Origin: Anaerolineae bacterium
Lineage (GTDB): Bacteria; Chloroflexota; Anaerolineae; Epilineales; Epilineaceae
Direction: 5' to 3'
Assembly (NCBI GenBank): GCA_044228875.1
Contig: JBGAUA010000005.1
Location: 1 to 59,023, forward strand
DNA: 59,023 nucleotides
In this document: one piece after another, positions 100-58,815 of the stretch
Layout of the letters: every line of letters begins with the position of its first letter
Numbering within the stretch: position 1 is the stretch's first letter
The notes under the pieces: generated by a model
What the model saw: the letters and a program-made list of their open reading frames with translations, nothing else
Told to the model about the DNA's origin: nothing
The model's database searches: none
Made by a program: the position numbers and the translations under genes

Positions 100-3000
100 T
101 CAGTCGCAGAGCGCTTTGCCCGCCACCTGGTCGTAGATCCGCTTGAGTGCCGAACCGTCGGGGGCGAAGTAGGCCTGCCCCGCTTTGCCCGCCATCTGCG
201 TCAGGAGCGCCTTGTCCAGGTCCGGGCCCAGGCCGATGGTGAAGACGTTGAAGCCCATGCCGCGGGCCGAGGCGGCGTCCTTGAGTGCATCGGCTTCGGT
301 GCCCGCCGTGGGGCGGCCGTCGGTGAGCAGGATGATGACCGGCTTGTGCCCTCTCTTGGCGCGGCCGCTCAGCAGCTCCGCCATGCTGGACTCGATGCCG
401 CGGTCGATGCGCGTGCCCGACTTTGTCGTCAAGCCGTTGAGGGCAAAGCTCAAGGCAGCGCGGGAACTGGAGAGCGGCACCACCACGCGGGCCGTCTCGT
501 TGAAGGAGACCACTGCGGCCTGGTCCTCCGGAAAGCTCATGTTGTTGAGGAAGGACTGGCCCGCGGCGACTGCCGCCTGGAGCTTGGTCTGGCTGCTGCC
601 CACCTGGGCCGATTCCAGCATGCTGCCCGAGGTGTCGATGGCCAGGACGATGTCGGCCCGCTGGGGCTTGCAGCTGTTGCGGTAGACGATCGGGAACAGG
701 AGGTTTCGGGCCCTCAGGACGGTGACCTCCGGGACAGGGAAGACCGCCTGCCCCGACTCGCCGGCAGCGTCCTGGTAGCTCAGGGAGGCTCGGACGTTCG
801 TGGGATGGCGCCCTTCTCGCTGCGGCCGCACCTTGTAGCTGATGGTGCGACCGCTGGCCGGCACCTCGCCCAGGGTCCAGGTGAGCGTGCGGCCCTGGAC
901 CGAATCCGGCGGTGGGAAGGCCGAGCCCGGCTCGTAACGCATGTCGGTCGGCAGCTCGTCCACCACGGTGCCGCCTGCGAGGAGCCGCGCGGCGCTCAGG
1001 CTGCGGGCGATGTTGCGGTAGACCACGGCCAGCTGGGCGTCGGTGGGCGCCGCGTAGAAGAGATCCGGTCTGGTGGACACCGTGTACTTTAGGATGTCGT
1101 CGTTGATGGTCGTGCCCAGGCCGATGGTGTAGACCGTGGCGCCGGTGGCCTTGAGGGCGGCCGCCGCGTCATCGAGCCCGTCGGTGGAGGTGGGCTTTCC
1201 GTCGGTCATCATCACGGCCACGCGCGGCACCCCCGGCCGGCTGGCGGCGCCTACCAGCTCCTGGCGCCCCTTGTCCAAGGCGTCGACGTAATTGGTCTGC
1301 CCGCCGGCGCTGAGCCGCCCGATCGCGCGCACGACGCCGCGCAGGTCGTTGGTGAGGGGCTGGAGTACCGTCGCCGAGGTGTCGAAGGAAACCACGGCCA
1401 CCTGGGCGCCCTTGGGGTTCAGCTCGCCCAGGAAGGCCAGGGCTGCGTTCTGTGCCGCGGCGATGGTCGAACCGGACATAGACCCGGACTCGTCGATGAT
1501 CAAGGCCACGTCCAGGCGCCCGTCGCCCAAGGGGCAGGCTCCGCTGACCCGCAGCTGCACCGTGGCCAGCTGGAAGCGCTCCACCGGATCCGGCGCCGCC
1601 GTCTTGCCGAGCAGCACCTTGCAGCCGGCACCCTCCACCGGCGGTGCGGCCATCGGCGTACCGCCCGGCTCGTAAAGAAGGATCTGGTCGCGCAGCGGGT
1701 CGGCGATGTAGACGCGGCCGAAGGGCGCCGCCGCGAGGTCGTTGGGCGCCGTCACCCCGTCCAGGTCGAAGACCGCGCGGAGGCTGCCGTCCGCGGCGAC
1801 ATACTTCCACACCCGGTTGTCCTTGGCCAGGACGTAGACCATGCCGGCCGACACGTCCAACCGCATCGGTCCGGCCGGCATGGGGATCAGCGCCAGGCGC
1901 GCGCCGTCAGCAGCGTTCCGCACGTCGATGCGCAGGTTGGTCTGATCGGCGAGGTAGACCCGTCCGGCTTCCATGGCCAGATCGCCGACGGACAGGAAGG
2001 CGCCGCCCGGATCCAGAGGCCAGCTGCCTTGCGGCAGCCCGGCCCGGCTGTGCAGCCAAACCTTCTGGTCCGCCAGGTCCAAGGCGGCCACGCGCGTCGT
2101 GTCACCGTCCACCGCCGTCAGCCAGCCCGAGTCGGGGATCTTCACCGACCAGTCGCCGGCAGGGTCGTGGCAGGCTACCTTGAGGCCGGTGATGCGGCAG
2201 GGCTGCGCCCCGCCGCCGCCCACGTCGACGGGGTAGTCCTCCTCCACATAGGCCCATTGCTGGCGCGCTTCGCCCGCGGCTGTCCACAGCTGGCTGCGGC
2301 TGCGCTGGTCCAGGATGAAGGCATCCTCGCCGCTGCCCACCGCGAGTCGCCGCGGCGCTTGCAGCAGGCCCAAGGAGGCATCCACGTTGCCGCCCCAACG
2401 CAGGGGCTCCGTCTTGAAATCGGAGCGGTCCGCCTGGTAGGACAGCCCCTTGTAGCCATTGCCCTGATTCACGCTGAAGACCATGCCTCCGCCGGGACCT
2501 ACGGCGAGTCCGGCGGCGCCGGACAAGCCGCTGGACTGGAGCGGCGCGCCGGCGAGCAGCTTGCCGGCCGTGTCCCAGCCCAGGTAGTGGCCGGACGAGC
2601 TGGTCACGACGGTGAAGACCCGCCCACTGCCATCCACGGCCACCGAGCGCAGCTCCGCTGATCCCTCGAGGTTGCGCGGCAAGCGCAGGAGCGCCGATGC
2701 CGTCACGCCTGAAGCTCCGCCGACGGTGAAGACATAGATGGAGCCATCACCGGCCATGTAGATGCGACCGTCCGGCCCCACGTCGAGATCGAAGGCGGTG
2801 GAGATGGAGAAGTTCTCGTCGCGCCAGCTACCCAGGCTGCCGCCGTTGGCATCGTAGACCTGGATGCGTGCCTCGCCGGAGACCACCCGCGTTACCAGCA
2901 CCTGGTTGCGACCACCGTCGTAGGCCAGACCTTCGCCGGTGACCGCCCAGGCCGCGCGGTTCTTGAGGTCACGGCCGTAGACGGCGCCGGCGCTGCTGCC

Positions 3001-3698: not shown

Positions 3699-5639
3699 AT
3701 GTCCATCGTGATCCGCCGACTGTCCCTCATGGCGCTTCTCTGCGTCCTCGGCGCCGGCGCGGGCCGGCGACCCGCGGCGCGCGCCCAGGGTGATCTGCCG
3801 GAGCCGGGCTACAGCCTGCTCTATGCCTTGGACATTCCCGTCAGCGCGGACTTCAACGCCGCCGGAGCGCCCTATGGCGTGGACCGCGGCGCGGCCTTGG
3901 CCGGGCCCTTCGACCGTGTGGCCTATCGCCTGCGCCTGGAAGCGGCCGACGGCCGCAGCGAGGCGCTGTGGGTGTCCATGGATGCCTTCAGCGACGACCT
4001 GCGCGGTGTCGGGCTGCCCACGACGGCGAGCGGCGCCGCCTTCCAGGGCGCCGTCAAGGCGATGACCGTCGTCAGCGACGTGCCCGGCCTGCCCGTCGGC
4101 TCGGACCTGCCCGGCGGCTGGCTCGAACTGTGGCCTTCCGATTACAGCACCGCCAACAGCGCCGGCGCCCCCGGCGCCGACGACAGCTTGTACGACTGGG
4201 GCGACGCCCCCACGGGCGGTGGCAACTATGGCAGCTTCCAGATCCACGACAGCGCCAGCGGCAAGACCCTCATGGCCTACAACCACTGGGGCCAGGCTGC
4301 CGGAGCCGCAGCCGACATCGGCATCGGATCCCGGCCGACCGGTCATCCGGACTGGACCTTCGCCGCCAATGCCGCCGCCTGGGTCAGCCGCCGGCTGGAG
4401 GTCTACGTTCGCAGCCAGGCCTCGCCGGCCGACCACGTGCTCAGCGAACCGCTGCCCCGCAGCGTCCGGCAGCGGGACGCCCTGGATCGGGCGGAGATCC
4501 CGGTGGCCGGTGCCTTCGCCGAAGGGGTGGGTGCGGTGGAGGCCCGGGCCGTTTCCCTGCGGCCGCCGCTGCGGTCCACCGAGTGGCGGCTGATCGACGC
4601 GGCGCCGCAGGCCGGCCGCTTCGGCGGTCGCCTGAGCGTGCCCGTCGGTTGGTGGCGGCTGGAGGTGCGAGCGGCGGTGGCCGTCGAGCCGGAGCGCCTG
4701 CTGACCGGCCGCGTGGCCCCCGTCGGTGTGGGCGAGGTCTTCATCACCGCCGGCCAGTCCAACAGCGCCAACCACGGCTCGCCCCCGCAGCGTCCCGCGG
4801 ACGACCGTGTCTCCGCGTGGCGGGGCGCTGCGCTCGGCGGCTGGCGGAAGGGCGCGGACCCGCAGCCCGTGGCTACCGGCAGCGGCGGTTCGCCGTGGCC
4901 GGCCATGGGCGACGCCTTGGCGGCGTCGCTGGATCTGCCCATCGGCATCGCCTCCGTGGGCTGGGGCGGCACCACGGTGGCGCAATGGCTGCCCGATCGA
5001 CAGCTCTATCCCCGGCTGAAGCAGGCCATGGCCGGTCTGGGCGGCGCCGGCGGCTTCCGCGCTGTACTCTGGCATCAAGGAGAGAGCGACGCCGTCGGCG
5101 GCACCAGCACCGCGGCCTACGCCGCGGACCTCACCCGCCTCATCGAACAGTCGCGCGCCGATGCCGGCGGGCCGGTGCCCTGGCTCGTGGCGGAGGTCTC
5201 CTTCGCCCCCAACCTGGCTCAGCCACCGCGCGACGCCGTGATCGCCGCCCAGCGGCAGGTGGTGGCCTCCGTGGCCGATGTGCACGCCGGACCGGGCACG
5301 GACGACCTGGCAGGCGCCGAATGGCGCTTCGACGGCATTCACTTCGGTGCCGCCGGGCTCGCCCTGCATGGCCGGCGCTGGGCGCAGGCCCTGGCCGCCT
5401 CCGGCATCCTGCCTGCCGCGGCTCCGCCCGCGACCTCGACCCTCATCCCCACGTCGGAGCCCAGCGGCACGCCGACGCCGACGGAGCCGCCGACGCCCGA
5501 ATCCACCGTCGCGCCGACCCGCGGGTCCACCACGACGCCTCCCGAGCCGGCACTGCTCCTTCCCTACCTCGCCCGGACGATCCCCGCTGCGCACCCGTTG
5601 CCCCGCGATCCCCTCTGCGGTATGCTCAACGGCCGTTGA
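3699..5639 (+). CDS. Secreted sialate O-acetylesterase-like (SASA/SGNH-type) carbohydrate esterase with a P/T-rich C-terminal linker
   Basis: The ATG at 3699 starts the signal peptide MSIVIRRLSLMALLCVLGAGAG. The motif FITAGQSNSANHG matches the GQSN active-site block of the SASA family, and WHQGESD lies downstream. The tail is P/T-rich. Confidence 0.7.
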   Translation: MSIVIRRLSLMALLCVLGAGAGRRPAARAQGDLPEPGYSLLYALDIPVSADFNAAGAPYGVDRGAALAGPFDRVAYRLRLEAADGRSEALWVSMDAFSDDLRGVGLPTTASGAAFQGAVKAMTVVSDVPGLPVGSDLPGGWLELWPSDYSTANSAGAPGADDSLYDWGDAPTGGGNYGSFQIHDSASGKTLMAYNHWGQAAGAAADIGIGSRPTGHPDWTFAANAAAWVSRRLEVYVRSQASPADHVLSEPLPRSVRQRDALDRAEIPVAGAFAEGVGAVEARAVSLRPPLRSTEWRLIDAAPQAGRFGGRLSVPVGWWRLEVRAAVAVEPERLLTGRVAPVGVGEVFITAGQSNSANHGSPPQRPADDRVSAWRGAALGGWRKGADPQPVATGSGGSPWPAMGDALAASLDLPIGIASVGWGGTTVAQWLPDRQLYPRLKQAMAGLGGAGGFRAVLWHQGESDAVGGTSTAAYAADLTRLIEQSRADAGGPVPWLVAEVSFAPNLAQPPRDAVIAAQRQVVASVADVHAGPGTDDLAGAEWRFDGIHFGAAGLALHGRRWAQALAASGILPAAAPPATSTLIPTSEPSGTPTPTEPPTPESTVAPTRGSTTTPPEPALLLPYLARTIPAAHPLPRDPLCGMLNGR

Positions 5640-5665: not shown

Positions 5666-7299
<1,634 letters not shown>

Positions 7300-7303
<4 letters not shown>

Positions 7304-44084: not shown

Positions 44085-44197
44085 ACGAGCCCACCAGCCG
44101 AGAGCGGGTGGCTTGTCCTGGAGATCGACCTGCCCCGGCCGGTCGGCACGGTGTTCATGCCGTGGCTGGGGCGGCAGGCGGGGCGTTGAAGGCAGAC

Positions 44198-46255
44198 TCA
44201 GCGCGATTGAATCAGCAGTCCGGCTGGCGTCCAGATGGACGGCGACGGGAAGGCCGCGGACTGCCAGCCCTCGGCAGAGCCCTGTTGACCCCCGCGCAAG
44301 CTCACGGAGACCAGCGGCAGAACCAAGCGATGGCCGTCGTCCGCATTTGGGGTCGTCGTCCGCGTGACCGACGGGGTCGCCACGGCTGTGGGGAAGCCTG
44401 AGGCCGTGGCCGTGGCGTTCGGGGCGGTGGCGGTCGCCGCGGCTGACGTGGGATCAGCGCTCGCCGTCGGAGCCACCGTCGCCGTCGCCGCGCCCTCCGG
44501 CCCCGCGTCCTCCACCCGCCGGCAGCCCTCGCCCGCGCAGGCCTGGAGCGCCCGCACCCAGGCGCTGAGGGCCGCCAGCTGCTCGGCCGGCGCCCGGCGA
44601 GACTGGCTCTCGAGCTGGTAGGGGTCGGCCGTGTTGTCGTACAGCTCGGTCGCGCCGGAGCGATGCTCGATGTAGGTGTGGCGCGCGTCGCGCAGGGCGA
44701 TGTACAGCGGGGCCGGCGCGCTGCTTTGGTTCGGGCGGGAGCCGAGGCCGAGGTCGAGCCCGAGTCCGGTCCCGATCCCGGGGCCTGTCTCGGTCCTGCT
44801 CGGCCGCGCCGACTCCTCCTCCATCAGGAGGCGATCCGTTCCTTCGATCGGTTCCAGCAGGCCGGCATCTGACGGTGCGACCAGCGGTTCGGGCTGCCTA
44901 GCCGTGATCGATCCCCGTGGGTCGGGCCGTCTTGCCGTGCTGGATCCCAGCGGATCCGGATCCCCTCCGGCCGGCGAGCCCAGCGGGTACTGCTCCACCA
45001 GCAGCGCCTGCCGCCAGGTGGCCGGGGGCGCTCCATGGCCCAGCAGCCAGCCGAAGGAGCGGCCGTCGACGAAGTCCGGCACCTGGGCGCCGGCGATCTG
45101 CGCCAGCGTCGGCGCCAGGTCGATGTTGGCCACCAGGTGCGTGTCGTCCTTGCCGCCCGCGGCGATGCCCGGCCCGCGGGCGAAGAAGGGCACGCGGATG
45201 TCCTCCTCGTAGGCCATGGCCTTGCCCTCCGGCAGGCGGTGCTGGCCCAGGTGGTAGCCGTTGTCGCTGGTGAAGATGAACAGGGTGTCGGCCAGCTCGC
45301 CCGAGGCCTCCAGGTCGGCGACCAGGGCGGCCACCATCTCGTCCACCGCCTGCATGGCCTGCAGGCGCTTGCGGTAGAGCGCGTCCGCTTCGGCGATCTG
45401 CGCGTCGGTCAAGGCCGCGCGCAGGCGCAGGGGCGGCGGCTTGTCGCTCATGTCCGCCTCGTTGAAGGAGGGCGAGCGCGGCACCTGGGCGTCGGGGAAG
45501 AGCGCCGCATGGCGGGGGGCCGGGTCCGATGGGCTGTGCGGCGCGTAGGGCGTGACCATCAGGAAGAAGGGGGCTGCGCTACCGGTCATGTCCGACAGGA
45601 AGGCGCGGGCATGCCCCGCCAGCACGTCGGTGATATGGTCCGCCGCCGCCTCGCCATGGGCCTCCTGCCGGCCGTCCACGTTGAGGGTGTAGTTGTAGGA
45701 GGCGTAGGCGTTGCCGCGCATCGGGCTGGCCCAATGGTCCCAGCCCGGCGGGATGTGCAGCAGGTCGTCCCTGAGCGGGAAGCCGTTCACGTACTTGCCG
45801 GCGAAGCCCGTGCGGTAGCCGGCGGCCTGCAGCCAGGTGGCCACCGTCGAAGCCTCCAGGCCCAGGCTGTCCAGCTTCTCGTAGCCGCCGTCCGGTGCGG
45901 TGTTGGTCAACACCCCGTGGTTGTGGGGGTACTGGCCGCGCAGGTAGGTGGTGCGCGAGGGGCAGCAGAGGCTGTCGGTGATGAGGTAGCGCTCCAGGCT
46001 GATGCCCGCGTCCCGCACAAGCCGGTTGATGTGGGGCGTGTGTTCCATGGTGCCCAGCAGCTGGTCCAGGTCGTCGGCCATCACCAGCACGATGTTGGGG
46101 CGGGCCTGGGCCGCGGCGGTGGGCGATGGCCGGTGGGCGGCGCCGGGCCGTCCGCCGAGGGCCGTCGCCAGGGACAGAACGCCGATGACCATGGCCCTGC
46201 GACTGCGGGGGCGGACAAGATGGGCGTCGCGGCGAAAGGGCAGGAGCGGGTTCAT
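44198..46255 (-). CDS. Secreted sulfatase (formylglycine-dependent, arylsulfatase / N-acetylglucosamine-6-sulfatase-like)
   Basis: The start at MNPLLPF (46255) is followed by a signal region. NIVLVMADDLDQ and the SLCCPSRTTYLRGQYPHNHG block (C-x-P-x-R) are present. The C-terminal linker is A/T/P-rich. Confidence 0.9.
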   Translation of the reverse strand: MNPLLPFRRDAHLVRPRSRRAMVIGVLSLATALGGRPGAAHRPSPTAAAQARPNIVLVMADDLDQLLGTMEHTPHINRLVRDAGISLERYLITDSLCCPSRTTYLRGQYPHNHGVLTNTAPDGGYEKLDSLGLEASTVATWLQAAGYRTGFAGKYVNGFPLRDDLLHIPPGWDHWASPMRGNAYASYNYTLNVDGRQEAHGEAAADHITDVLAGHARAFLSDMTGSAAPFFLMVTPYAPHSPSDPAPRHAALFPDAQVPRSPSFNEADMSDKPPPLRLRAALTDAQIAEADALYRKRLQAMQAVDEMVAALVADLEASGELADTLFIFTSDNGYHLGQHRLPEGKAMAYEEDIRVPFFARGPGIAAGGKDDTHLVANIDLAPTLAQIAGAQVPDFVDGRSFGWLLGHGAPPATWRQALLVEQYPLGSPAGGDPDPLGSSTARRPDPRGSITARQPEPLVAPSDAGLLEPIEGTDRLLMEEESARPSRTETGPGIGTGLGLDLGLGSRPNQSSAPAPLYIALRDARHTYIEHRSGATELYDNTADPYQLESQSRRAPAEQLAALSAWVRALQACAGEGCRRVEDAGPEGAATATVAPTASADPTSAAATATAPNATATASGFPTAVATPSVTRTTTPNADDGHRLVLPLVSVSLRGGQQGSAEGWQSAAFPSPSIWTPAGLLIQSR

Positions 46256-46334
46256 GGCTGGCTCGCGGGGGGCTGCGCCGATGCGCCGGTGATTCGCCCA
46301 GCAGAACGGCGGGGACGAGGGGCAGGATAGGACG

Positions 46335-47175: not shown

Positions 47176-50100
47176 TTAAGGCCCCTCCATCAGCTGGGCC
47201 ATCCCGAGCAGCAGCGGCAGGTACACCGGCCCTTCCCGCCCCGGCTCCAGCACCTGCATCTGCCCCTTGGCGTCCGCGAAGTCGTCGCCCGGGTAGGCCA
47301 GCAGCCAGCTGTAGTCCGTCTCGCCGGGGCCGCGACCGAGGGCGATGGATCCGCGCGCCGACCCGCTCTCGTCCGGCAGCCGCAGCGACCAGGCCGCCGG
47401 AATGCGGGCCATGTCCGCAGGGTTGAAGACGTAGCGCGGGCCGTCCGCCTGATCGGCGCCGTCGGGGGCCACGTCGCTCTGGGCCACCGTCTTGGGATGC
47501 GGCGGCGAGAGCCAGTCCTCGTTCAAGGGCGTCGCCACCACATGGAAGGCGAAGCTGTCTTCCGCGCTGATTCCCAGGCCCGCCGCCGGCGCCGTCAGCA
47601 CGGTCAAGCGGGTGTGCTGGTCGCTGCGGTGGGCGGCCAGGTCCGACTTCAGGGTGCCGGAGATGATCTCGCCGCGACCCTCGTTGAGCGTGGGATCCCA
47701 GCCGGCATACTGCGTGAGCACCTGCGCCGGGTTGCCCCCGACCGCCTCGCGCATCACGTGGTCCGTCTTGCCGTCGCGGTCCGCGTCGATGTACACCGCC
47801 AGGTTGGTGACATGGGCGATGGCCGCGGCCTCGTGGCGGGCGATGGCCACCGACAGCAGGGCTTCGCCGCCCTCCGCGCCCGGCTCGATGCGCAGGCCCA
47901 CGCGCCGCAGGTCCAGCTCGCGCAGCACCTCCGGTTCGTCGGCATCCTCGCTCGCCGAGGGCTGCTGAGCCGTCCCGGCCACCAGGCCGACGCGCGGCAG
48001 GACAAAGAGCTCCGCCGTGCCCGGCAGGCCGTCGTTGCGCAGGCGAAGGGCGTTGACCTTGTCGTGGAGCGCCGCCGCCAAGGGCTGGGCCGTGAAGGCC
48101 GAGGCCTTGCGCGGCAGCAGGTAGAAGGGCAGGGAGGCCTGCGGCAGGTCGGCCAGGGGCCGGCCCTGGTCGTCGATCGGGCTGATCAGCACATGCCCCT
48201 GGATCTCGTGAGCGGCGATGGGTCCGGGATCGCTGACCGGCGGGTTGGGGTACAGCGTCCAGTCCGGCAGGGCCGCGGGGTCCACATCGAAGACCACATC
48301 GAAGCTGACCGTCTCGCCGGGGGCGATGGTCATGGGGCCTTCGGGCAAGGTCACCTTGAGCGCCGGCCCGAAGCCTGTGTCGCCTGGGCGGTCCAGCGAC
48401 AGCGCCAGCTTGAGCGGCGCGTCCTTGGCGAGGGACTTGACCGTCACCGTTCGCCGCAAGGTTGCCGGCGCGCTGAGGGCCATCGCCCCCAGGTTGATGC
48501 TGGCGATGTCGCCGGCGCGGGCCACGAACTGCGCCGTGCCCGCCCGCCAGATGTCCACCAGGCCGGCGCCCTGGCGCACCGCGGTGATCGGGGCGCGGGT
48601 GACCGGGTCCTGGTAGATGACCGGCCGGGAATAGTTCATGAGCATCGCCCCCAGGTCGGCGGCGCCCAGGCCCAGGTTCTGCTTGCGGTTGCGGTGCTGC
48701 ATGAGGGCCGCCGTGCCCGCCACCATCGGGCCGGCCATGGAAGTGCCGCTGAAGGACACCCCGCCCGAGCCCGAGCCCATGCGCGCCGAGTTGATGCTGG
48801 AGCCGGGCGCGGCGATGTCGGGCTTGAGCGCGCCGTTCTTGGACGGCCCGCGGGAACTGAAGCCCGAGACCGCGTCGGCCAGGCTCTCGTCCAGCTTCAC
48901 CGTGCTGGGGTCCATCCGCACCGCCACCTCGGTTCCGGCCATCAAGAGATCCCGCAGGGCCAGGCCGGGGGCGTTGTCGATCATCACCGCGGCGATGTCG
49001 ATGCCGGCGCTGTCACCGCCCATCGGGGTGCGGGCGTTCTGGTTGGTGTAGACCAGTACCGCGATGGCCCCGGCCTTCTGGGCGTTGAGGATCTTCTCGG
49101 GGAACACGCAGTCGCCGCGGGCCACCAGGGCCACCTTCTCAGCGACGTCCTGTTCGATGGCGTCGCCATTGCAGGCCCGGCCCATGAAGGCCAGGGCGGC
49201 GTCGATGGGCGCGCGACCGGCCAGAGCGGCGACGGTGCTGTCCACCGCCGGGTAGTCGGCCTTCTGATCCGCCCAGCGCGCCTCCACCATCATGGCGAAG
49301 GCCGGCGGCACGGTGCTGGCCACCGACAGGATGCGCGGCGAGGCCGATGGCGCGCCGACGACGAAGGGCTGGTCGCCGGCGTTGCCGGCGGAGGCGACGA
49401 CGATCACGCCGTTGTCGGTGCCGCTCGACACGGCCTCGTCGAAGAGGCGGCTGCCCTGGCCCCAGTTCTCGCCGAGGCTGATGTTGATGGCGTCCACCTG
49501 CGGCGGCAGGACGCCGCGGTCCTCGATCTTCACGTTGACGCGGTAGGTCCATTCGATGGCGTCCACCAGCACGTCGGCGGCCTCGTCGCCGCCGTTGGTG
49601 CCGTAGAGCTTCAGGCCCACGATCTGGGCCCCTGGCGCGATGCCGTCGGGGATGGCGGGGATGGTGGCACCGGCGATGATGCCGGCCACATGGGTGCCGT
49701 GGCCGCCGGCGTCGAGCGGATCGGGGTCGGGCTCGGGGATGTTGGTGCACTGGCCGGTGCTCATCATGGCGTCGGTGCAGATATGCGGTGGGTTGTAGCG
49801 CGGGCCGACGAAGTCGTAGCCGCCGACGACCTTGCTGTTGGGCAGGAGCAGCTTGTCCTGCCACTTGTCGTCGACGCGCTCGCCGTTGCCGCCGCCGGAG
49901 GCGAACTGGAAGGCCGCCGGATCGCCGGGGCCGCCGAGATGGGCATGGGTGTAGTCCACGCCGGTGTCGATGACGGCCACCACCGAACCTTCGCCGTTGA
50001 CGCCGAGTTCCTGCGCCAGGCGCCGCGCGCCGACATGGGGCGCCGAGGTGCCCAGCTCCGGCCGCACGATGGGCGCGGCCTCGACCTCCAGGACGCCGGG

Positions 50101-51620: not shown

Positions 51621-53315
51621 TCAGTCCAGTCGCTTCAGGTAGGGCAGGAAGACGCGGACCAGGCCCGGCGTCGCGCTCGGTGCGGGCTGGACAGGCGTGG
51701 CAGTATCCGCCGGGCGGCTGGTGGCCGTGGCCGAAGCCGCGGTCTCGGGCGTGTCGCTCGGCGCCGCCGAAGGGGCGACCGTCGGCGTCGTCGTCGGCGG
51801 CCGGATGGCCGTCGCGGTGTCCGCCGGGCGGGTGGTCGCCGTCGCGGTGGCCGCCGTGGTCGGCACCGCGGGCATCACCTTGGACACCGCGGCGAAGGCG
51901 TCCACCAGCTTCAGGGTGTCGCCCGATTCCGGATGCGTCACGTCGCGGCCCGTGTCCTGCAGCAGGCGCTGGATGTCCGCCGACCGCAGGTCGTCCTTCA
52001 CTTGCGACAGGAGGGCCACGATGCCGGCCACGATCGGCGTGGCGTAGGAGGTGCCGGCGCCGGAGCCCAGGCCGCCGCCCATGGCCGCGTGGGTGATGAT
52101 CAGGCCGGGTGCCAGCACGTCCAGCGAGCGGCCGCGGTCCGTGAAGCAGGCGATGGTGAAGATGTCCGGCTTGTCCTGCCGCGGGCACCACATGCCGCCG
52201 TTGGCCAGGCGCGCCGGCCCGTCGTAGCTCTTGTCGTAGGTGGCCCCCACGCTCATGGCGTTGGAGATGCAGGCCGGGAAGGCCACCCGGTCGGCGTTGC
52301 CGCCGTTGCCGGTGGCCACCACCACGGTGACGCCCTTGCTCACCAGGCGGGCGAAGGCCGCCTTCACCGTGGCGTGGTTGTTGTCGCAGTTGGTGCCGAT
52401 CTCGGCGCCGCCGCCCAGGCTCATGTTGACCGCCTTGACGTTGTGCTCCTTCTGCTTGGTCAGCACCCAGTCCAGGCCGGCCACGATGTCCGGATCGTAG
52501 GCGCCGCCGTTGTCGCGGAAGACGCGGACCGCCAGCAGGCTGGCGCGCGGGGCGATGCCCAGGGCCGTCACCTGCTTGTTGGCCTCGTTGAGGCCCTTGG
52601 TGACGCCGCGGCCCAGGATCATGCTGCTGACCGCCGTCCCATGACCGTACTCGTCCTCGGCATTGTCGCTCTTGGGCAGGCCCCGCGGCGCGCAGCTGCG
52701 CGAGCCCTCGCTGTAGCATTGCTGGGCCACGATGGCCCCTTCGAAGTCCGGGTGGTCGTTGTCGATGCCCGTGTCCAGAACCGCTACGCCCACGCCGGTG
52801 CCGTCCAGGCCCCAGGTCTCGAAGACCTTGTCGGCGCCCACCGTCACCCGGCCTTCCGGCATGAGCGCCGGCCGCAGTGCCGGGCCCAGGGGATAGACCT
52901 TGACCACCTGCTCCACCGAGGCCACACGCGGGTCGGCGGCCAGGCGCCGGAGGCCTTCCGCGTCGGCCCAGGCATGCAGGATGGGGAAGCTGGCATAGCG
53001 GGCCACCACGCGGAGTTCTTCTGGACGGTAGTCCGCTGTCACCGCATCCTGCACCCGCGCCGCGGCGGCCTGCAGCCGCGGCACCGGCGCGTCGTCGGCC
53101 ATGCCGTCGACCAGGCCGATCAGCAGCTCCACCTCGCCTTCGGCCGCGCTGGCGGCCGTGTCCGTGGCGGGGACGAAGAGGCCCGAGGCGGCGCGGGCGA
53201 AGCTGCCCGCCGGCGGCGGCGCGGTGTCGGGACGGGCCGCGGCCGGCAGGGCGGGGGCTACGGCCAGCGCCAGCGCCAGGAACGGCAAGGCGCGGCGGAG
53301 GGGTTGGCTGTGCAT
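51621..53315 (-). CDS. Secreted S8 subtilisin-family serine protease with a P/T-rich C-terminal linker
   Basis: The signal peptide is LPFLALALAVAPALPAAA. The triad blocks are VGVAVLDTGIDNDH, GHGTAVSSMILG and AGTSYATPIVAGIVALL. Confidence 0.9.
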   Translation of the reverse strand: MHSQPLRRALPFLALALAVAPALPAAARPDTAPPPAGSFARAASGLFVPATDTAASAAEGEVELLIGLVDGMADDAPVPRLQAAAARVQDAVTADYRPEELRVVARYASFPILHAWADAEGLRRLAADPRVASVEQVVKVYPLGPALRPALMPEGRVTVGADKVFETWGLDGTGVGVAVLDTGIDNDHPDFEGAIVAQQCYSEGSRSCAPRGLPKSDNAEDEYGHGTAVSSMILGRGVTKGLNEANKQVTALGIAPRASLLAVRVFRDNGGAYDPDIVAGLDWVLTKQKEHNVKAVNMSLGGGAEIGTNCDNNHATVKAAFARLVSKGVTVVVATGNGGNADRVAFPACISNAMSVGATYDKSYDGPARLANGGMWCPRQDKPDIFTIACFTDRGRSLDVLAPGLIITHAAMGGGLGSGAGTSYATPIVAGIVALLSQVKDDLRSADIQRLLQDTGRDVTHPESGDTLKLVDAFAAVSKVMPAVPTTAATATATTRPADTATAIRPPTTTPTVAPSAAPSDTPETAASATATSRPADTATPVQPAPSATPGLVRVFLPYLKRLD

Positions 53316-55908: not shown

Positions 55909-57318
55909 TCAGCGTTCCAGCGACGGAAGGTAGATGCTGCGCTGCGGGGCCTGGGTGGGCACCGCCGTCGCCGGCTCCTGGGTGGGCACTTCCGTGCTGG
56001 GCGGCTCCGGCGTGTCCGTCGGGGACGGAACCGACGGCGTGTCGGTGGGCGGCGGCGCGACCGGCGTGTCGGTGGGCCGCGGTCCGGTGGCAGTCTCCGT
56101 GGGTGCCGGCACGTCCGGCGTGGCCGTCGGCACGGCGGGCGGGAAGTTGTCGCAGAACTCGGGCTTGCCCTTCTCGTAGATGCAGACCTGGGGGTTGGGC
56201 AGGAAGTACTCCAGGTCGGCGCCGCTGACGAAATTGAAGTAGAGCACCGCCTCGTCGCCCAGCTCGATCTTCTGGCCCGCCAGGCCCGGGTCGTCATCCT
56301 TCACGCGCATGCTGTACTCGATGGACTGCCCGCCCGGCCGATGGGTGGAGGCCTTGAAGTTCCAGCAGATGCCGCTGAAGGGATCGTCCTCGTCCGGGTC
56401 GCGCGGCGAGGCGGAGCCGGGGATGAACTCGAAGAGCTGGCGGTTGAAGTAGTCGCAGTAGGATGCATCGTTCATCTTGTCGCCGTAGAGCAGGGCTTCC
56501 GCGGCGGCGTTCCAGACCTCCTGCAGGTCCTTGCCGTCGGCCTGACGGGAGGTCCACATGCCCTGGGTGATGCACTTGTAGCTGTTCAGGCGGCTCTGCG
56601 CCAGGGCCATCTGCACCGCGGCGAACTCGACACCGCCGCGATGCGCGACCTCGCAGGCCTGGCCGGTGGGCACAGGGATGCGCTCCTCGGTGGCCGTGGT
56701 CTCGGGCGCGCCGGAGTCGAACATCACGATGAGGTTGTCCTGCGTCTTGTCATCCACCGGCAGCTGCTGCGTGGCGTCGCGAATGGCCTCGCCGAGGCCG
56801 TTGACCGATCCGGAAGGCTTCAGCCGCAGGTTGTTGTCGATGCGCCTCAGGATCTCATCGCGCGCCGCGGCGCCGCATTGCAGGGGCATCAGCGGCATGG
56901 ACGTGGTCGAGAACACGATCAGTCCGATGCAGGAGCCGTTGCTGTAGTTGACGCGGTTGGCGAAGTCCTTGAGGCCGCGCTTGAGGTTGTTGAGGATGCT
57001 GACCCCGTCGCGCGGGTTGACATCCTGGGACAGGGTGTCGGCGACGGCCAGGATGATGTTGACCTTGCGCGAACGCTGGGCGCACTTGTAGTCGTAGTTC
57101 ACGCGCACGGTGATCTGGTCGCCCTGCTTGACCACCCTGGGCTCCAGGGTGCGGTCGAAGACGATGCCGCAGGGGCGCTCCTCCGGCGGCTCCTCGCCGC
57201 CCTGCAGCGGCGCGACCGGCCCGCTGGCCGCCGCGCCGTTGAGACCGGCGAAGCCCAGCAGGGCCAGGATGGCGGCCATCAAGACGGGGGCCATCCACTT
57301 CTGATGCGATCGGCTCAT
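55909..57318 (-). CDS. Secreted protein with a MIDAS-less vWA-like domain and a P/T-rich C-terminal linker
   Basis: GAGAGGA lies upstream of the ATG, and a signal peptide is present (VLMAAILALLGFAGLNG). VNIILAVADTLSQD occupies the place of D-x-S-x-S. LIVFSTT and LIVMFDSG strands follow. The assignment to the vWA fold is by pattern only. Confidence 0.65.
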   Translation of the reverse strand: MSRSHQKWMAPVLMAAILALLGFAGLNGAAASGPVAPLQGGEEPPEERPCGIVFDRTLEPRVVKQGDQITVRVNYDYKCAQRSRKVNIILAVADTLSQDVNPRDGVSILNNLKRGLKDFANRVNYSNGSCIGLIVFSTTSMPLMPLQCGAAARDEILRRIDNNLRLKPSGSVNGLGEAIRDATQQLPVDDKTQDNLIVMFDSGAPETTATEERIPVPTGQACEVAHRGGVEFAAVQMALAQSRLNSYKCITQGMWTSRQADGKDLQEVWNAAAEALLYGDKMNDASYCDYFNRQLFEFIPGSASPRDPDEDDPFSGICWNFKASTHRPGGQSIEYSMRVKDDDPGLAGQKIELGDEAVLYFNFVSGADLEYFLPNPQVCIYEKGKPEFCDNFPPAVPTATPDVPAPTETATGPRPTDTPVAPPPTDTPSVPSPTDTPEPPSTEVPTQEPATAVPTQAPQRSIYLPSLER

Positions 57319-57546: not shown

Positions 57547-58815
57547 TCAACCGCCGTCGCAGCCCGCCATGATCGCGACGGAACGGAAGATCCGCTCCAG
57601 ATCGGCGCCGTCGGGTGACGGGAAGAAGCGGTCGGGGCTGCCGGCGAGCTGCTGGAGGAGGGCGGCGTCGGCTCCCTCGCCCAGGCCGATGGCGAAGACG
57701 GTCAGGCCGGCGGCCCGCGCCCGCGCCGCGGCCGCCAGGGCGGACGCGGGATCGGCGAGGCCGTCGGTGAGCAGGACGACGACGGGCACGCGGCCGGGGC
57801 CGCCGCCGGCGAGGATGTACTGGGCGGCCGCGAGGCCCTGGTCCAGCCGGCTGCCGACCCGCACGTGGCCGTAGATGTCGGCCAGGGCCATGAGCAGCCC
57901 GAGGCGGTTGTCGGAGAGGCCCATGAGCACTTCGCTGCGGCCGCTGAAGGCCACGACGGCGGCGCGGTCGCCGGGGAAGGTGAGGCTGTCGACGAAGGCG
58001 GTTCCGGCGTCCAGGGCCAGCTGCAGCTTGATCTCACCGCCGGCGGCGGGCTCGTGCATGCTTGAGGAGGCGTCGAGCAGGAGCACGACATCGGCGCGGT
58101 GGTCGGTGGGCTTGCAGTGGCGGCGGCCGAGGAAGGGGAGGTACACCGGCCGTAGGGGCTCCGTGGGGCGCGGGCTGGGGCTGGCCGACGGCGTCACGGT
58201 GGCGGTGGGAGTGGCCGATGGGGTGGCGGTGGCCGTGGGCGGGGGAACGCAGTCGATGGCGGCCACCGGCAGCGCGTACACGTAGGGCGAGCCGCGATCG
58301 AAGGTGAGCTCGGCGGTGGCGCCGTCGGAGGAGGGGAAGCGGCCGAGCTGCTTGCAGATGGCCTGGTAGCTGATCTCGAGTCCGCCTTCGGGCCACACGG
58401 CATAGAGCCAGGTGAGGTCGCGGCCGCGCAGGCGGGGCGCGGGGATGCCGGAGCCCCAGCTGTACTCGAAGCCGGTGGCCAGGGTGTCGGTGACGAGGCC
58501 GCCCATGAGCTTGACCTGCGACAGGTCCTTCACGATCTGCTGGAAGAGCCCGGGGTAGCGCCCGGCGATGGTCTCGGTGTAGAAGAAGGCGGGCGAGGTG
58601 GCCATGCGGGTGAGCATGTCATAATCGGCGGCACTGGCGGCGGCGACGGTGACGATGAGGACGCCGTCGTCCTTGGCCTTGGCGGCCTCGGCGAGGGGGA
58701 CGTCGGGACCGTCCTCGTCGGGTCCGCCGGAGACGAGCAGGAGGATCTCCTGCACGCCGGGCGCGCCGGTGCCGCCGGCCCTGCGCGCCGCGCTCGAGGC
58801 GCCCTGCATCCACAC
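57547..58815 (-). CDS. 5'-truncated vWA protein: C-terminal half of one vWA domain, a beta-sandwich-like spacer, a P/T linker and a complete terminal vWA domain
   Basis: The ORF opens with GTG two codons after an in-frame TAG. There is no signal peptide. The first residues (EILLLVSGGPDEDG...VLIVTVAAAS...SPAFFYTE) align by eye to the second half of the vWA domains of gene 17506. The terminal domain has VVLLLDASSSM. Confidence 0.65.
   Translation of the reverse strand: MWMQGASSAARRAGGTGAPGVQEILLLVSGGPDEDGPDVPLAEAAKAKDDGVLIVTVAAASAADYDMLTRMATSPAFFYTETIAGRYPGLFQQIVKDLSQVKLMGGLVTDTLATGFEYSWGSGIPAPRLRGRDLTWLYAVWPEGGLEISYQAICKQLGRFPSSDGATAELTFDRGSPYVYALPVAAIDCVPPPTATATPSATPTATVTPSASPSPRPTEPLRPVYLPFLGRRHCKPTDHRADVVLLLDASSSMHEPAAGGEIKLQLALDAGTAFVDSLTFPGDRAAVVAFSGRSEVLMGLSDNRLGLLMALADIYGHVRVGSRLDQGLAAAQYILAGGGPGRVPVVVLLTDGLADPASALAAAARARAAGLTVFAIGLGEGADAALLQQLAGSPDRFFPSPDGADLERIFRSVAIMAGCDGG

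What the first reader, a model, noticed from the sequence alone, without database searches (positions are those of the whole stretch)
679..58146. Recurrent C-terminal/junction motif aliphatic-[Y/F/L]-[L/I/F]-P-x-[L/V/M]-x-[R/G] in ten secreted proteins: candidate undescribed sorting or processing signal
The same short motif occurs ten times in this window.

Seven copies lie at or near the extreme C-terminus, all in proteins with N-terminal signal peptides:
- SASA esterase: LLLPYLAR, 5553-5576
- Kelch: RYIPLVQSR, 27783-27809
- S9 peptidase 2: VFLPNLSR, 36580-36603
- Sulfatase: LVLPLVSVSLR, 44294-44326
- S8/PA protease: VYLPLLLG, 47203-47226
- S8 protease: VFLPYLKR, 51630-51653
- MIDAS-less vWA: IYLPSLER, 55912-55935

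Three copies are internal, each lying a few residues (6-11) upstream of the first strand of a terminal vWA domain:
- LLFPIVYR, 679-702
- IFLPLMLR, 19645-19668
- VYLPFLGR, 58123-58146

Codons differ between copies, so conservation is at the protein level and this is not a DNA repeat. The motif usually follows a P/T-rich linker. It is never followed by a TM helix plus basic tail. That makes it unlike LPXTG, PEP-CTERM, GlyGly-CTERM, PGF-CTERM or MYXO-CTERM, and it is far too short to be a T9SS CTD. I cannot assign it to any named sorting signal. It could be a recognition tag for anchoring, cleavage or export.
Basis: seen in the sequence. Interest (0 to 1): 0.8.

Follow-up and report, generated by a model that had tools for sequence, protein, structure and literature searches.

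The report
New terminal tag on Chloroflexota exoproteins
A roughly ten-residue peptide (about I-Y-L-P-L-L-L-R-x-x) is shared by many unrelated exported enzymes and adhesins of filamentous Chloroflexota from wastewater sludge; it is predicted to be unfolded at the far end of their flexible stalks, matches no sorting signal I could find, and probably helps hold these proteins on the cell surface.

Summary
All ten sites translate as stated, in the coding frames of exported proteins. Two sites (Kelch, sulfatase) are weak matches.

The window comes from Candidatus Epilinea or a close relative (Chloroflexota, Ardenticatenia).

The motif is a unit of about 10 residues: aliphatic-[Y/F/H]-L-P-aliphatic×3-[R/K]-x-x.
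- It is conserved in S9-peptidase and SASA-esterase orthologues while the tails around it diverge.
- A scoring matrix trained only on vWA-linked copies finds it 22-fold enriched in the last 30 residues of other proteins (p = 7e-14).
- It caps a widespread C-terminal, Cys-bracketed, MIDAS-intact vWA module (103 of the top 150 cluster representatives).
- It also occurs in mirror image at the N-terminus: signal peptide, motif, PT linker, domain.
- AlphaFold2 leaves it unstructured in both contexts tested.
- No Pfam or NCBIfam model and no paper I could search covers it.

Best reading: a lineage-specific docking or retention peptide at the free end of a stalk, recognised by an unidentified partner. 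It is not a sortase- or exosortase-type cleaved signal. The mechanism is inferred, not shown. A processing site is the main rival.

The parts
679..702 (-). Tag copy LLFPIVYR at the junction between a beta-sandwich domain and the C-terminal vWA module of the 1177-aa NHL/vWA protein (100-3633)
   Evidence: Translation. Matrix score 13.2 bits. AlphaFold2 gives pLDDT 55-69 and no secondary structure here, while the vWA domain scores above 95. A 92%-identical orthologue is present in Ca. Epilinea brevis (L003).
103..678 (-). Cys-bracketed, MIDAS-intact C-terminal vWA module that follows the tag (NSC...DTSGSM...ALCD*)
   Evidence: Pfam VWA/VWA_2. Alignment A1 shows conserved DxSxS, T and D MIDAS positions and a Cys at each end. 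In the AF2 model the first Cys makes a bridge with the C-terminal Cys region. The nearest solved structures are collagen VI, mussel PTMP1, ANTXR2, BatB and LapA vWA domains, and all of those matches start after the tag.
5553..5576 (+). Stand-alone tag LLLPYLAR after a PT linker, 20 aa before the stop of the SASA esterase (3636-5639)
   Evidence: Score 12.0 bits. The Ca. Epilinea brevis orthologue (79% identity) keeps IHLPSVVA but has a completely different tail.
19645..19668 (+). Tag copy IFLPLMLR between a PT linker and the third, C-terminal vWA module of the 919-aa protein (17506-20265)
   Evidence: Score 21.6 bits, the best in the window.
19669..20262 (+). C-terminal vWA module of the 919-aa protein (DSSLSM ... 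MDCPAEGVWGER*)
   Evidence: Pfam VWA 730-889. Aligned in A1.
27783..27809 (+). Weak copy RYIPLVQSR, 3 aa before the stop of the Kelch-repeat protein (25161-27821)
   Evidence: Only the core Y-I-P-L-V matches; matrix score is -6. A Y-I-P variant (LYIPLAAR) occurs at the C-terminus of a GDPD/FG-GAP protein in L002. No orthologue was available to test conservation.
36580..36603 (+). Stand-alone tag VFLPNLSR, the last 8 residues of S9 peptidase 2 (34276-36606)
   Evidence: Thirteen orthologues with intact C-termini, at 47-87% identity, all keep [IVF][YF]LP.[LVA] with variable tails. The Pro is invariant and the Leu nearly so in alignment A4. AF2 gives residues 768-776 pLDDT below 50 and no structure.
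44294..44326 (-). Weak copy LVLPLVSVSLR after an Ala/Thr/Pro-rich linker, 31 aa before the stop of the sulfatase (44198-46258)
   Evidence: Score 3.8 bits, within the top 1% of P-centred 8-mers but lacking the aromatic at -2. No orthologue available.
47203..47226 (-). Stand-alone tag VYLPLLLG, 8 aa before the stop of the S8/PA protease (47176-50496)
   Evidence: Score 17.7 bits. A similar S8+PA+PKD protein in L051 ends IYLPKAFNKE*.
51630..51653 (-). Stand-alone tag VFLPYLKR after a PT/A-rich linker, 2 aa before the stop of the S8 protease (51621-53315)
   Evidence: Score 11.2 bits. The protein ends exactly 6 residues after the Pro, the most common end point.
55912..55935 (-). Stand-alone tag IYLPSLER after a 70-aa PT linker, the last 8 residues of a 469-aa exported protein with a degenerate vWA-like domain (55909-57318)
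   Evidence: Score 13.1 bits.
58123..58146 (-). Tag copy VYLPFLGR between a PT linker and the C-terminal vWA module of the 5'-truncated ORF 57547-58821
   Evidence: Score 15.8 bits.
57550..58122 (-). Cys-bracketed C-terminal vWA module (RHC...DASSSM...MAGCDGG*)
   Evidence: Pfam VWA 242-410. Aligned in A1.

Best explanation
The motif is a lineage-specific peptide tag of about 10 residues. Its consensus is P-x-P-[R/K]-P-[I/A/L/V]-[Y/F/H]-L-P-[L/I/V]-[L/A]-[L/Y/V]-[R/K]-x-x. It is carried by Sec/Tat-exported proteins of the Anaerolineae-group Chloroflexota (NCBI classes Ardenticatenia, Caldilineae, Anaerolineae). The window is from Ca. Epilinea or a close relative.

The tag is not part of any folded domain. 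It lies in a segment AlphaFold2 leaves unstructured, at the end of a flexible and usually Pro/Thr-rich stalk that is farthest from the globular part. It occurs in three arrangements:
1. domain, linker, tag, then the protein ends 0-20 residues later, most often exactly 6 residues after the Pro;
2. domain, linker, tag, then a Cys-bracketed MIDAS-type vWA module that ends the protein;
3. signal peptide, 10-50 residues, tag, linker, domain.

SHOWN:
- the tag is real, conserved under selection, and enriched at termini;
- it is restricted to proteins with export signals (one exception is listed under evidence against);
- it is shared by many unrelated families;
- it is absent from homologues outside the lineage;
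- it is predicted to be unstructured;
- no Pfam or NCBIfam model matches it.

INFERRED: it is recognised by one dedicated partner and works as a non-covalent docking or retention peptide. The PT stalk acts as a tether, keeping exoenzymes and adhesins on the filament surface. The tag works in either chain orientation, has strict sequence requirements (invariant Leu-Pro, aromatic or His at -2), and needs nothing downstream. I therefore favour binding by a protein receptor over a cleaved, transpeptidated sorting signal. The partner is unknown. The abundant MIDAS-intact vWA modules that always sit next to a tag are one candidate.
For: Reality and selection
- 8 regex hits, all in coding frames, against 0.28 expected.
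- In 607 called genes from the Chloroflexota loci plus the window, 111 hits reach 10 bits or more, against 13.6 in shuffled proteins.
- Six-frame ORFs of the Chloroflexota loci have 8.75 hits of 12 bits or more per 100,000 aa, against 0.6 in loci from other phyla; the called genes have 31.9.
- S9 orthologues at 47-87% identity keep the core, while the preceding linker and following tail differ in length and sequence. The same is true of the SASA esterase orthologue.

Terminal bias
- With a matrix trained only on vWA-linked copies, the other hits split 16 in the last 30 residues against 15 elsewhere. That is 22-fold enrichment, binomial p = 7e-14.
- 9 of 21 stand-alone tags end exactly 6 residues after the Pro. 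This is where the Cys (+7) of the vWA-linked copies begins. The unit therefore has a defined length.

Exported, diverse carriers
- An N-terminal hydrophobic segment is present in 75-100% of tagged proteins against 26-35% of untagged ones.
- Carriers include SASA esterase, S8, S8+PA(+PKD), S9, sulfatase, Kelch, MtrC-like multihaem cytochrome + Big_9, DUF4397, phytase-like, beta-helix, beta-lactamase-fold, GDPD+FG-GAP, and NHL/vWA giants.

Not part of a fold
- In the vWA module the tag has pLDDT 55-69 and no secondary structure, next to a vWA domain above 95.
- In S9 peptidase 2 the tag has pLDDT below 50 after the last helix.
- In some proteins a second PT linker separates the tag from the vWA Cys, and some carry tandem tags.

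Orientation independence
- Two families carry signal peptide, tag, PT linker, domain. The tag is conserved among orthologues from genomes and metagenomes (L016, L018, L019, L068, L083-L087).
- A 58%-identical orthologue from what looks like a low-GC organism has the signal peptide joined directly to the domain, with neither tag nor linker.

Lineage and abundance
- 67 of the 80 best genome loci are from MAGs labelled Anaerolineae, Anaerolineales, Ardenticatenales, Caldilineae, Ca. Epilinea or Ca. Leptofilum, or from one unclassified 'bacterium UCB3'. Many genomes contribute several loci, at least 11 for Ca. Epilinea brevis. The 13 loci from other phyla lack the tag.
- 103 of the top 150 representatives of 50%-identity clusters carry the tag before a C-terminal vWA module.

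Context
- Ca. Epilinea filaments attach to other filaments by an unknown mechanism (PMC10746286).
- No cohesin or dockerin was found in Anaerolineae genomes (PMC4877987).
Against: - No partner was identified. The only recurrent neighbours of tagged genes are ECF sigma factors, ABC ATPases and two-component systems.
- There is no localisation or proteomic evidence for any of these proteins.
- The N-terminal class rests on only two protein families.
- The loci were fetched through the vWA module, so vWA-linked counts are biased upward. No whole proteome could be scanned.
- Gene calls and signal-peptide calls are home-made heuristics (GC3 rule, hydrophobicity window).
- A run of seven hydrophobic residues could also act by generic membrane or hydrophobic-surface partitioning, or be a protease site. 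Neither is excluded.
- At least one hit (the NurA-like protein in L043) is probably a cytoplasmic false positive. TM helices and signal-peptide cores also give occasional hits.
Confidence: 0.45

Rival explanations
1. Processing site. A dedicated extracytoplasmic protease recognises the tag and cuts there. It would remove whatever lies distal to the stalk: a signal-anchor remnant at the N-terminus, or a short tail or a whole vWA module at the C-terminus. This would release or activate the linker-plus-enzyme part.
For: - The tag lies in an exposed region predicted to be unstructured, as protease sites do.
- The sequence distal to it is unconstrained in length and composition, from 0 to about 200 residues.
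- The arrangement is consistent in both orientations.
- The window is rich in S8 and S9 peptidases, including Pro-directed S9 enzymes.
Against: - Many tags are followed by only 0-2 residues beyond the 8-residue core. Trimming those would achieve nothing unless coupled to transfer.
- The preferred end point, exactly 6 residues after the Pro, suggests the whole 10-mer is the functional unit rather than a scissile bond plus a disposable tail.
- No protease gene co-localises consistently with tagged genes.
Confidence: 0.25
2. Covalent sorting signal. A sortase-like or butelase/PatG-like transpeptidase cleaves within or after Y-L-P and joins the protein to the wall or to another protein. The short tail or the vWA module would be the leaving group.
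For: - It is shared by many unrelated exported families, which is the hallmark of sorting signals.
- It contains an L-P dipeptide, as LPXTG does.
- Short leaving groups are known for some transpeptidases (my own knowledge of butelase and PatG, not tested here).
Against: - No hydrophobic helix plus basic tail follows any copy.
- There is no T-G after L-P-x.
- Genuine LPXTG substrates coexist with the tag and look entirely different (window 27927-28619).
- In the N-terminal arrangement the enzyme would be the leaving group, giving the opposite outcome to the C-terminal arrangement.
- No NCBIfam sorting-signal model matches.
Confidence: 0.08
3. Docking site for an enzyme that modifies the adjacent Pro/Thr-rich linker, such as an O-glycosyltransferase, or for a foldase such as a PPIase acting on the Leu-Pro bond. 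On this reading it is not a localisation signal.
For: - The tag usually sits directly at one end of a PT-rich linker, in either orientation.
- Leu-Pro preceded by an aromatic residue is a classic PPIase-type substrate (my own knowledge, not tested here).
Against: - Several strong copies have no PT linker at all: S9 peptidase 2, the S8/PA protease, window protein 1 and its roughly 1100-aa orthologues.
- The tag is always at the end of the linker distal to the domain, never between the linker and the domain it serves.
Confidence: 0.1
4. Structural N-terminal cap of the C-terminal vWA module. On this reading the stand-alone C-terminal copies are functionless relics of modules lost by truncation.
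For: - The commonest context is immediately before the module's first Cys (80 of 111 hits, biased sample).
- Stand-alone tags often end exactly where the module would begin.
Against: - AF2 does not pack the tag onto the vWA domain.
- Solved vWA homologues and vWA proteins from other phyla lack it.
- Stand-alone tags are conserved across S9 orthologues down to 47% identity, with an invariant Pro, while the tails drift.
- N-terminal copies exist with no vWA domain at all.
- A second linker can separate the tag from the module.
Confidence: 0.04
5. Chance or compositional artefact of a high-GC genome rich in Leu, Pro and Arg.
For: - The motif is short and built from residues common in 70%-GC genomes.
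- The regex was defined after seeing the sites.
Against: - There are no hits in the five non-coding frames of the window.
- Shuffles give 0.28 against 8 observed in the window, and 13.6 against 111 in the wider set.
- The motif shows strong positional bias, orthologue conservation and lineage restriction.
Confidence: 0.01

Closest known systems
LPXTG / sortase cell-wall sorting signal (Gram-positive bacteria; also present in this window at 27927-28619)
   Same: Both are small tags shared by many unrelated exported proteins. Both usually sit at the C-terminal end after a Pro/Thr-rich wall-spanning stalk, and both contain an L-P dipeptide.
   Different: The new tag has no T-G after L-P-x, no hydrophobic helix and no basic tail, and often nothing at all downstream. 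It can also be N-terminal or be followed by a 200-aa folded domain. It is far commoner than LPXTG in these loci: 21 stand-alone tags plus 80 vWA-linked copies against 1 LPXTG-like tail in 607 genes.
Exosortase / archaeosortase / rhombosortase / myxosortase signals (PEP-CTERM, PGF-CTERM, GlyGly-CTERM, MYXO-CTERM)
   Same: The logic is many-to-one: one short signature is shared across dozens of paralogous and unrelated secreted proteins in a restricted lineage.
   Different: All of those are tripartite (signature, TM helix, Arg-rich cluster) and strictly C-terminal. None of their NCBIfam models matches here. The new tag is about 10 residues with no TM segment.
Dockerin-cohesin and other non-covalent surface-display modules (SLH, WxL, GW, LysM)
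   Same: The proposed function is the same: tethering enzymes to the cell surface through a terminal element on a flexible linker. That element can be at either end of the protein.
   Different: Those are folded domains of 40-190 residues. This is a peptide of about 10 residues predicted to be unstructured, with no identified receptor. No cohesin or dockerin was found in Anaerolineae genomes (PMC4877987).
Disulfide-bracketed adhesive vWA domains (von Willebrand factor A1/A3, collagen VI, mussel PTMP1, ANTXR2/CMG2, LapA vWA)
   Same: The module after three of the window's tags is a canonical MIDAS vWA domain. A Cys at each end is predicted to tie its N- and C-termini together. These are the best sequence and fold matches.
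   Different: None of these homologues carries the aliphatic-Ar-L-P-aliphatic×3-R peptide in front of the first Cys. All matches start after the tag.
BatA/BatB-type membrane-anchored vWA proteins
   Same: They are among the top fold matches, with weak NCBIfam hits (BatA, PRK13685). In BatA-like proteins from other phyla a hydrophobic segment ending ...LARPQ lies about 15 residues before vWA strand 1, roughly where the tag sits.
   Different: In BatA that segment is a full transmembrane helix at the N-terminus of a small protein. Here it is an 8-residue peptide at the C-terminal end of large exported proteins, after a linker. NCBIfam scores are far below the cut-offs.

Membership tests
LPXTG sortase signal | Pentapeptide L-P-x-T-G (or LAxTG / NPxTG variants) | tested here: not met
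   Position +2 is L/A and +3 is L/Y/V in 73 aligned copies. There is no T-G.
LPXTG sortase signal | Hydrophobic membrane-spanning segment followed by a positively charged tail at the extreme C-terminus | tested here: not met
   Tails are 0-20 residues with no hydrophobic stretch, or a folded vWA domain follows. The one true LPTTG protein in the window has the segment and tail.
PEP-CTERM / PGF-CTERM / GlyGly-CTERM / MYXO-CTERM and related NCBIfam sorting domains | Match to the curated HMM; tripartite signature + TM + Arg cluster | tested here: not met
   There were no NCBIfam hits to whole proteins at E <= 0.1, and none to isolated tails at E <= 10 apart from a single spurious low-scoring hit (CasD, 11.6 bits against a cut-off of 68.95). 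No TM segment follows the tag.
T9SS C-terminal domain | Folded beta-sandwich CTD of about 70-100 residues matching the type A/B models; a Bacteroidota-type secretion system | tested here: not met
   The tag is about 10 residues. No Pfam or NCBIfam CTD model hits. The organism belongs to Chloroflexota.
Dockerin | Duplicated Ca-binding EF-hand-like repeat of about 60-70 residues (Pfam Dockerin_1) | tested here: not met
   No Pfam hit on the tails or the whole proteins.
vWA domain (Pfam PF00092 / PF13519), for the module that follows three of the tags | Match above the gathering threshold; Rossmann-like alpha/beta fold; MIDAS residues DxSxS...T...D | tested here: met
   VWA scores 91-164 bits against a cut-off of 23.8. 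AF2 pLDDT exceeds 95 with the vWA topology, and Foldseek probability is 1.00 to vWA structures. The MIDAS positions are invariant or nearly invariant in alignment A1.
vWA domain, asking whether the tag itself belongs to the fold | The residues belong to the domain core in models and in homologous structures | tested here: not met
   The tag has pLDDT 55-69 and no secondary structure. PDB profile matches start at profile position 11 or later, i.e. after the 8-residue tag. A second linker can intervene between tag and module.
   Eight of the ten window sites meet the definition. The sulfatase (3.8 bits) and Kelch (-6 bits) sites meet only the positional criterion.
New tag (working definition) | Co-occurrence with one dedicated receptor or enzyme across genomes | not testable with these tools
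   No whole genomes or phylogenetic profiling were available. Neighbourhood clustering found no candidate.

The most novel reading that the evidence does not exclude
The tag and the MIDAS-intact, Cys-bracketed vWA modules could together form a peptide-docking display system, a functional analogue of cohesin-dockerin built from different parts. In this model the roughly 10-residue tag is the ligand. Its conserved acidic residue at +5, or the free C-terminal carboxylate 4-6 residues after the Pro, completes the MIDAS metal site of a vWA module on another protein. Tagged hydrolases, cytochromes and adhesins would then be assembled in trans onto the giant vWA-bearing scaffolds on the filament surface, and the scaffolds could chain head-to-tail. 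This would be a categorically new way for a monoderm phylum to build an exoenzyme and adhesin coat. It would also explain how Ca. Epilinea filaments stick to other filaments.
Probability: 0.12. Interest if true: 0.9.

Novelty: new variant of a known kind. Interest (0 to 1): 0.74.

Why it matters
Filamentous Chloroflexota are among the most abundant bacteria in activated sludge, anaerobic digesters and many sediments. Hydrolytic activity has been linked in situ to their cells, and Ca. Epilinea attaches to other filaments. No mechanism for surface display is known beyond a few sortase substrates and pili (PMC10746286, PMC11495043, PMC4877987).

A short tag is carried by most of the large exported proteins in this window: 10 of about 16 by my own reading of the ORF translations. 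It also appears in over a hundred diverse protein clusters elsewhere. Its uses would be:
1. It gives a handle for predicting the surface proteome of this phylum, where PSORT-type tools have no rule for it.
2. It gives a concrete bait, a 10-mer peptide, for finding the receptor or enzyme that recognises it.
3. If the mechanism differs from the tripartite cleaved signals, it adds a new type to the short list of prokaryotic protein-sorting and anchoring signals.
4. It may provide a compact display tag for biotechnology in these organisms.

Tried and rejected
- **Homologue search with a PT-rich query.** Low-complexity words swamped the candidate list and only one hit came back. One capped search was wasted.
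- **Exact-sequence lookup of the S8 protease.** The protein is not on record.
- **Genome scan with the 18-sequence alignment A1.** I repeated it with 8 closer sequences.
- **Pfam and NCBIfam on isolated tails at E <= 10.** Nothing relevant.
- **Literature searches.** I searched Chloroflexi/Chloroflexota plus sorting-signal terms, and literal peptide strings such as YLPLI and FLPLV. The peptide strings returned mainly antimicrobial peptides such as frog temporins. No description of this motif was found. This covers open-access text only, so absence is not proof.
- **Gene-neighbourhood clustering of 607 genes to find a partner.** It turned up only ECF sigma factors, ABC ATPases, two-component systems and the tagged families themselves.
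- **Local tblastn of six tagged window proteins, including Kelch and the sulfatase, against all fetched loci.** Only the SASA esterase had an orthologue, so the two weak sites could not be tested for conservation.
- **S9 peptidase 1 (31829-34276).** I considered it as an eleventh carrier (LTIPGLPA). Its score is -13.9 and its orthologues are not consistent. Rejected.
- **Orphan VFMPWLGRQAGR* at 44151-44186.** It scores 4.1 bits and lies in a 34-codon ORF after an in-frame stop. Probably chance.

Full report

Pfam confirms the domain labels: SASA, Kelch, Peptidase_S9, Sulfatase, Peptidase_S8 with and without PA, and VWA domains ending the three proteins with 'internal' copies.

All eight hits are in real coding frames: five within 28 residues of a stop and three about 200 residues before a stop. 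Shuffling the 42 window proteins gives 0.28 hits on average.

The Kelch and sulfatase sites do not satisfy the regex. They score poorly on an independent matrix (-6 and 3.8 bits, against 8.3-21.6 bits for the other eight). I treat them as weak members.

Codons differ between copies and the flanking DNA is unrelated. Conservation is therefore at the protein level. No copy is followed by a hydrophobic helix plus basic tail. A genuine LPTTG + TM + basic-tail protein sits at 27927-28619.

**2. Where does the window come from?**

The C-terminal module of the first protein is 92% identical to a locus of the MAG 'Candidatus Epilinea brevis'. This organism belongs to Chloroflexota, class Ardenticatenia in NCBI taxonomy. 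It is a short filament from activated sludge that attaches to other Chloroflexota filaments by an unknown mechanism (PMC10746286).

**3. Is the motif conserved?**

A homologue search with S9 peptidase 2 returned 15 close relatives at 47-100% identity, one of them identical to the query, from Ardenticatenales and Anaerolineae MAGs and metagenomes. Each of the 13 non-identical relatives with an intact C-terminus keeps [I/V/F]-[Y/F]-L-P-x-[L/V/A] a few residues from the end. The preceding segment and the following tail differ in sequence and length. In the alignment the Pro is invariant and the Leu nearly so, within an otherwise variable region.

The SASA esterase orthologue in Ca. Epilinea brevis (79% identity) has IHLPSVVA where the window has LLLPYLAR, and its tail is completely different.

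**4. The vWA-linked form.**

A homologue search with the last 200 residues of protein 1 showed that the peptide, followed after 3-4 residues by a Cys and then a MIDAS-type vWA domain ending in a second Cys, is a recurrent C-terminal module.

A scan of one genome per GTDB species returned 80 loci.
- 67 are from MAGs labelled Anaerolineae, Anaerolineales, Ardenticatenales, Caldilineae, Ca. Epilinea or Ca. Leptofilum, or from one unclassified 'bacterium UCB3'.
- Many genomes contribute several loci: at least 11 for Ca. Epilinea brevis.
- The remaining 13 loci come from other phyla and are BatA-like vWA proteins without the peptide.

A profile search of 1.84 billion cluster representatives found 2,500 proteins at E <= 1e-30. 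Of the top 150, 103 carry the peptide (at least 8 bits) directly before a C-terminal vWA domain.

From 73 such copies the consensus is P-x-P-[R/K]-P-[I/A/L]-[Y/F/H]-L-P-[L/I/V]-[L/A]-[L/Y]-[R/K]-[E/T/N]-x-C.

**5. Is the stand-alone form more than chance?**

I called genes in the window and the Chloroflexota loci with a GC3 rule, giving 607 genes and 304 thousand residues. I scored them with an 8-column matrix trained only on vWA-linked copies.
- Hits of 10 bits or more number 111, against 13.6 in shuffled proteins.
- Leaving out the vWA-linked hits, 16 lie in the last 30 residues and 15 elsewhere. That is a 22-fold enrichment, p = 7e-14.
- Six-frame ORFs of loci from other phyla have 0.6 hits of 12 bits or more per 100,000 residues. 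Six-frame ORFs of the Chloroflexota loci have 8.75, and the called genes have 31.9.
- Of 21 stand-alone C-terminal tags, nine end exactly six residues after the Pro. This is the position just before the Cys of the vWA-linked form. The functional unit is therefore about ten residues long.

Tagged proteins have an N-terminal hydrophobic segment in 75-100% of cases, against 26-35% for untagged ones. This is a crude heuristic, and several of the misses are over-extended ORFs.

Carriers include S8+PA+PKD proteases, MtrC-like multihaem cytochromes, DUF4397, phytase-like, beta-helix, beta-lactamase-fold and GDPD/FG-GAP proteins. One carrier, a NurA-like protein, is probably a cytoplasmic false positive.

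**6.

In two families the peptide lies near the N-terminus, in the order signal peptide, 10-50 residues, tag, PT linker, domain. One is an unannotated family of about 600 residues that gave no Pfam match. The other is a small family of 225-267 residues.

A metagenome scan with the first family found further orthologues with the same arrangement, for example ...GIAYLPGLLN followed by a PT linker. It also found a 58%-identical orthologue from what looks like a low-GC organism, in which the signal peptide joins the domain directly with neither tag nor linker.

Tag plus linker is therefore a lineage-specific add-on that can be placed at either end. The tag is always at the end of the linker away from the domain.

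**7. Is it part of a fold?**

- AlphaFold2 on the protein-1 module (18-sequence alignment) gives the vWA domain pLDDT above 95. The tag gets pLDDT 55-69 with no secondary structure. The first Cys bridges to the C-terminal Cys region.
- AlphaFold2 on S9 peptidase 2 (15-sequence alignment) ends the fold with a helix at residue 759 and leaves residues 768-776, the tag, below pLDDT 50.
- PDB profile matches (collagen VI, PTMP1, ANTXR2, BatB, vWF A3) begin after the tag, and the Foldseek best matches (BatB, PTMP1, LapA, ANTXR2, vWF A3) are all vWA domains.
- In some proteins a second PT linker separates the tag from the vWA Cys, and some carry tandem tags.

The tag therefore behaves as a linear motif rather than a domain element.

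**8. How does it most likely work?**

Shown:
- a conserved linear motif of about 10 residues, predicted to be unstructured;
- restricted to exported proteins of one bacterial lineage;
- shared across many families;
- located at the free end of a stalk in either orientation, or immediately before a terminal adhesive vWA module.

Inferred: the strict requirement for [Y/F/H]-L-P points to recognition by a specific protein rather than generic hydrophobic partitioning. Three features favour a non-covalent docking or retention peptide over a cleaved, transpeptidated sorting signal: orientation independence, the lack of any requirement downstream, and the fixed unit length.

This would fit the cell-associated exoenzyme activity and the adhesion reported for these filaments, and the absence of cohesin and dockerin in Anaerolineae genomes. 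I put this at about 0.45.

The main rival is a protease-processing site, at about 0.25. Neither is demonstrated. No partner gene emerged from the neighbourhood analysis.

**9. Comparison with known systems.**

The tag shares the 'many families, one small tag' logic of LPXTG, PEP-CTERM, GlyGly-CTERM, MYXO-CTERM and similar signals. It fails their defining features: no signature match, no TM helix, no basic cluster, and it is not strictly C-terminal.

Functionally it resembles dockerin-type display elements. However, it is a peptide rather than a folded domain, and no receptor is known.

The module after the tag is an ordinary member of the vWA superfamily. Like von Willebrand factor A domains, it has a Cys at each end that is predicted to bracket the domain.

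**10. Novelty and limits.**

I found no curated model (Pfam-A, NCBIfam release 20) and no paper in the searchable open-access library that describes this tag. That is not proof that it is unpublished.

Limits of this analysis:
- The loci were fetched through the vWA module, which biases the counts.
- No complete proteome or phylogenetic profile could be computed.
- Gene calls and signal-peptide calls are heuristic.
- The N-terminal class rests on two families.

I classify the finding as a new variant of the known kind 'short terminal tag shared by exported proteins'. There is a real chance that the mechanism is categorically new.

Noticed in passing
window 27927-28619 (-): A 230-aa protein with a signal peptide and a canonical sortase signal (LPTTG, hydrophobic segment, KLSGSRA). 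It was the only LPXTG-like tail among 607 called genes in the window plus the Chloroflexota loci, against 21 stand-alone tags.
   Followed up: partly
window 22445-27821 (+): A lower-GC island (0.62 against about 0.70). It holds a 920-aa Cys- and PT-rich ORF with a lipoprotein-like N-terminus and no Pfam match, followed by the Kelch-repeat protein. My GC3-based gene caller missed both. Possibly horizontally acquired.
   Followed up: no
window 15214-17356 (+); also L001, L003, L010, L013, L025: An ECF sigma factor plus a zf-HC2 anti-sigma factor with CarboxypepD_reg domains lie immediately upstream of the three-vWA protein (17506-20265). Homologous sigma-factor genes recur in the fetched loci around tag-vWA genes: 10 members in 8 loci or windows.
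   Followed up: partly
window 41360-42076 (+): A 238-aa protein with an N-terminal hydrophobic anchor. It has only the C-terminal half of a tag-type vWA module (ending LTCDRGAMWGGR*), with no MIDAS half and no tag. It looks like a deletion derivative.
   Followed up: no
window 57547-59023 (-): The ORF carrying the tenth tag starts inside a vWA domain (...ILLLVSGGPDEDG...), with a stop at 58822-58824 upstream. It is either 5'-truncated or there is a frameshift near 58.8 kb. The window ends before this can be resolved.
   Followed up: partly
window 31829-36606 (+); L001 7629-12367; L002 7614-12481: Two tandem S9 peptidase paralogues are conserved in synteny across three genomes. Only the downstream one carries a strong tag. 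The upstream one ends in a variable tail with at most a degenerate I/F-P (score -13.9).
   Followed up: partly
window 44151-44186 (+): A weak orphan copy, VFMPWLGRQAGR* (4.1 bits), in a 34-codon stretch after the in-frame stop of the multi-TM ORF 42339-44084. Probably chance.
   Followed up: partly
stand-alone tags in the window and loci (e.g. window 51630-51653; L012 11389-13512; L024 10753-13284; L053 6446-9745): Nine of 21 stand-alone tags end exactly six residues after the Pro. In the vWA-linked copies the Cys sits at +7 in 60 of 73 cases. The two forms are in register, which suggests a fixed unit of about 10 residues and an evolutionary link between them.
   Followed up: yes
L071-L081 (vWA loci from other phyla): BatA-like vWA proteins have a transmembrane helix ending ...LARPQ about 15 residues before vWA strand 1, roughly where the tag sits in the Chloroflexota modules. 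Whether the tag descends from such a helix is unknown.
   Followed up: no
L001 5196-7355 (+); L018 18174-20603 (-): A different exported family contains internal repeats of the form [H/Y]-[V/A]-P-[L/I]-V-Y-x-D-x-G-G. They superficially resemble the tag and can trigger loose regexes. They are repeat-domain strands, not terminal tags.
   Followed up: no
window 7300-10754 (+): A CYTH+CHAD protein followed by a Ppx/GppA exopolyphosphatase (a polyphosphate-metabolism pair). On the opposite strand there is an equally long spurious ORF (7273-9126) that fooled the GC3 caller.
   Followed up: no
L038 354-2342, L041 1123-3114, L052 3-2333, L016 19211-20605; L048 4929-7208, L030 4894-7161: Some proteins carry two tag-like peptides in tandem before the vWA module, for example VHMPVVLRE...LYLPLLVREQC. 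Others have a second short PT linker between the tag and the Cys of the module.
   Followed up: partly
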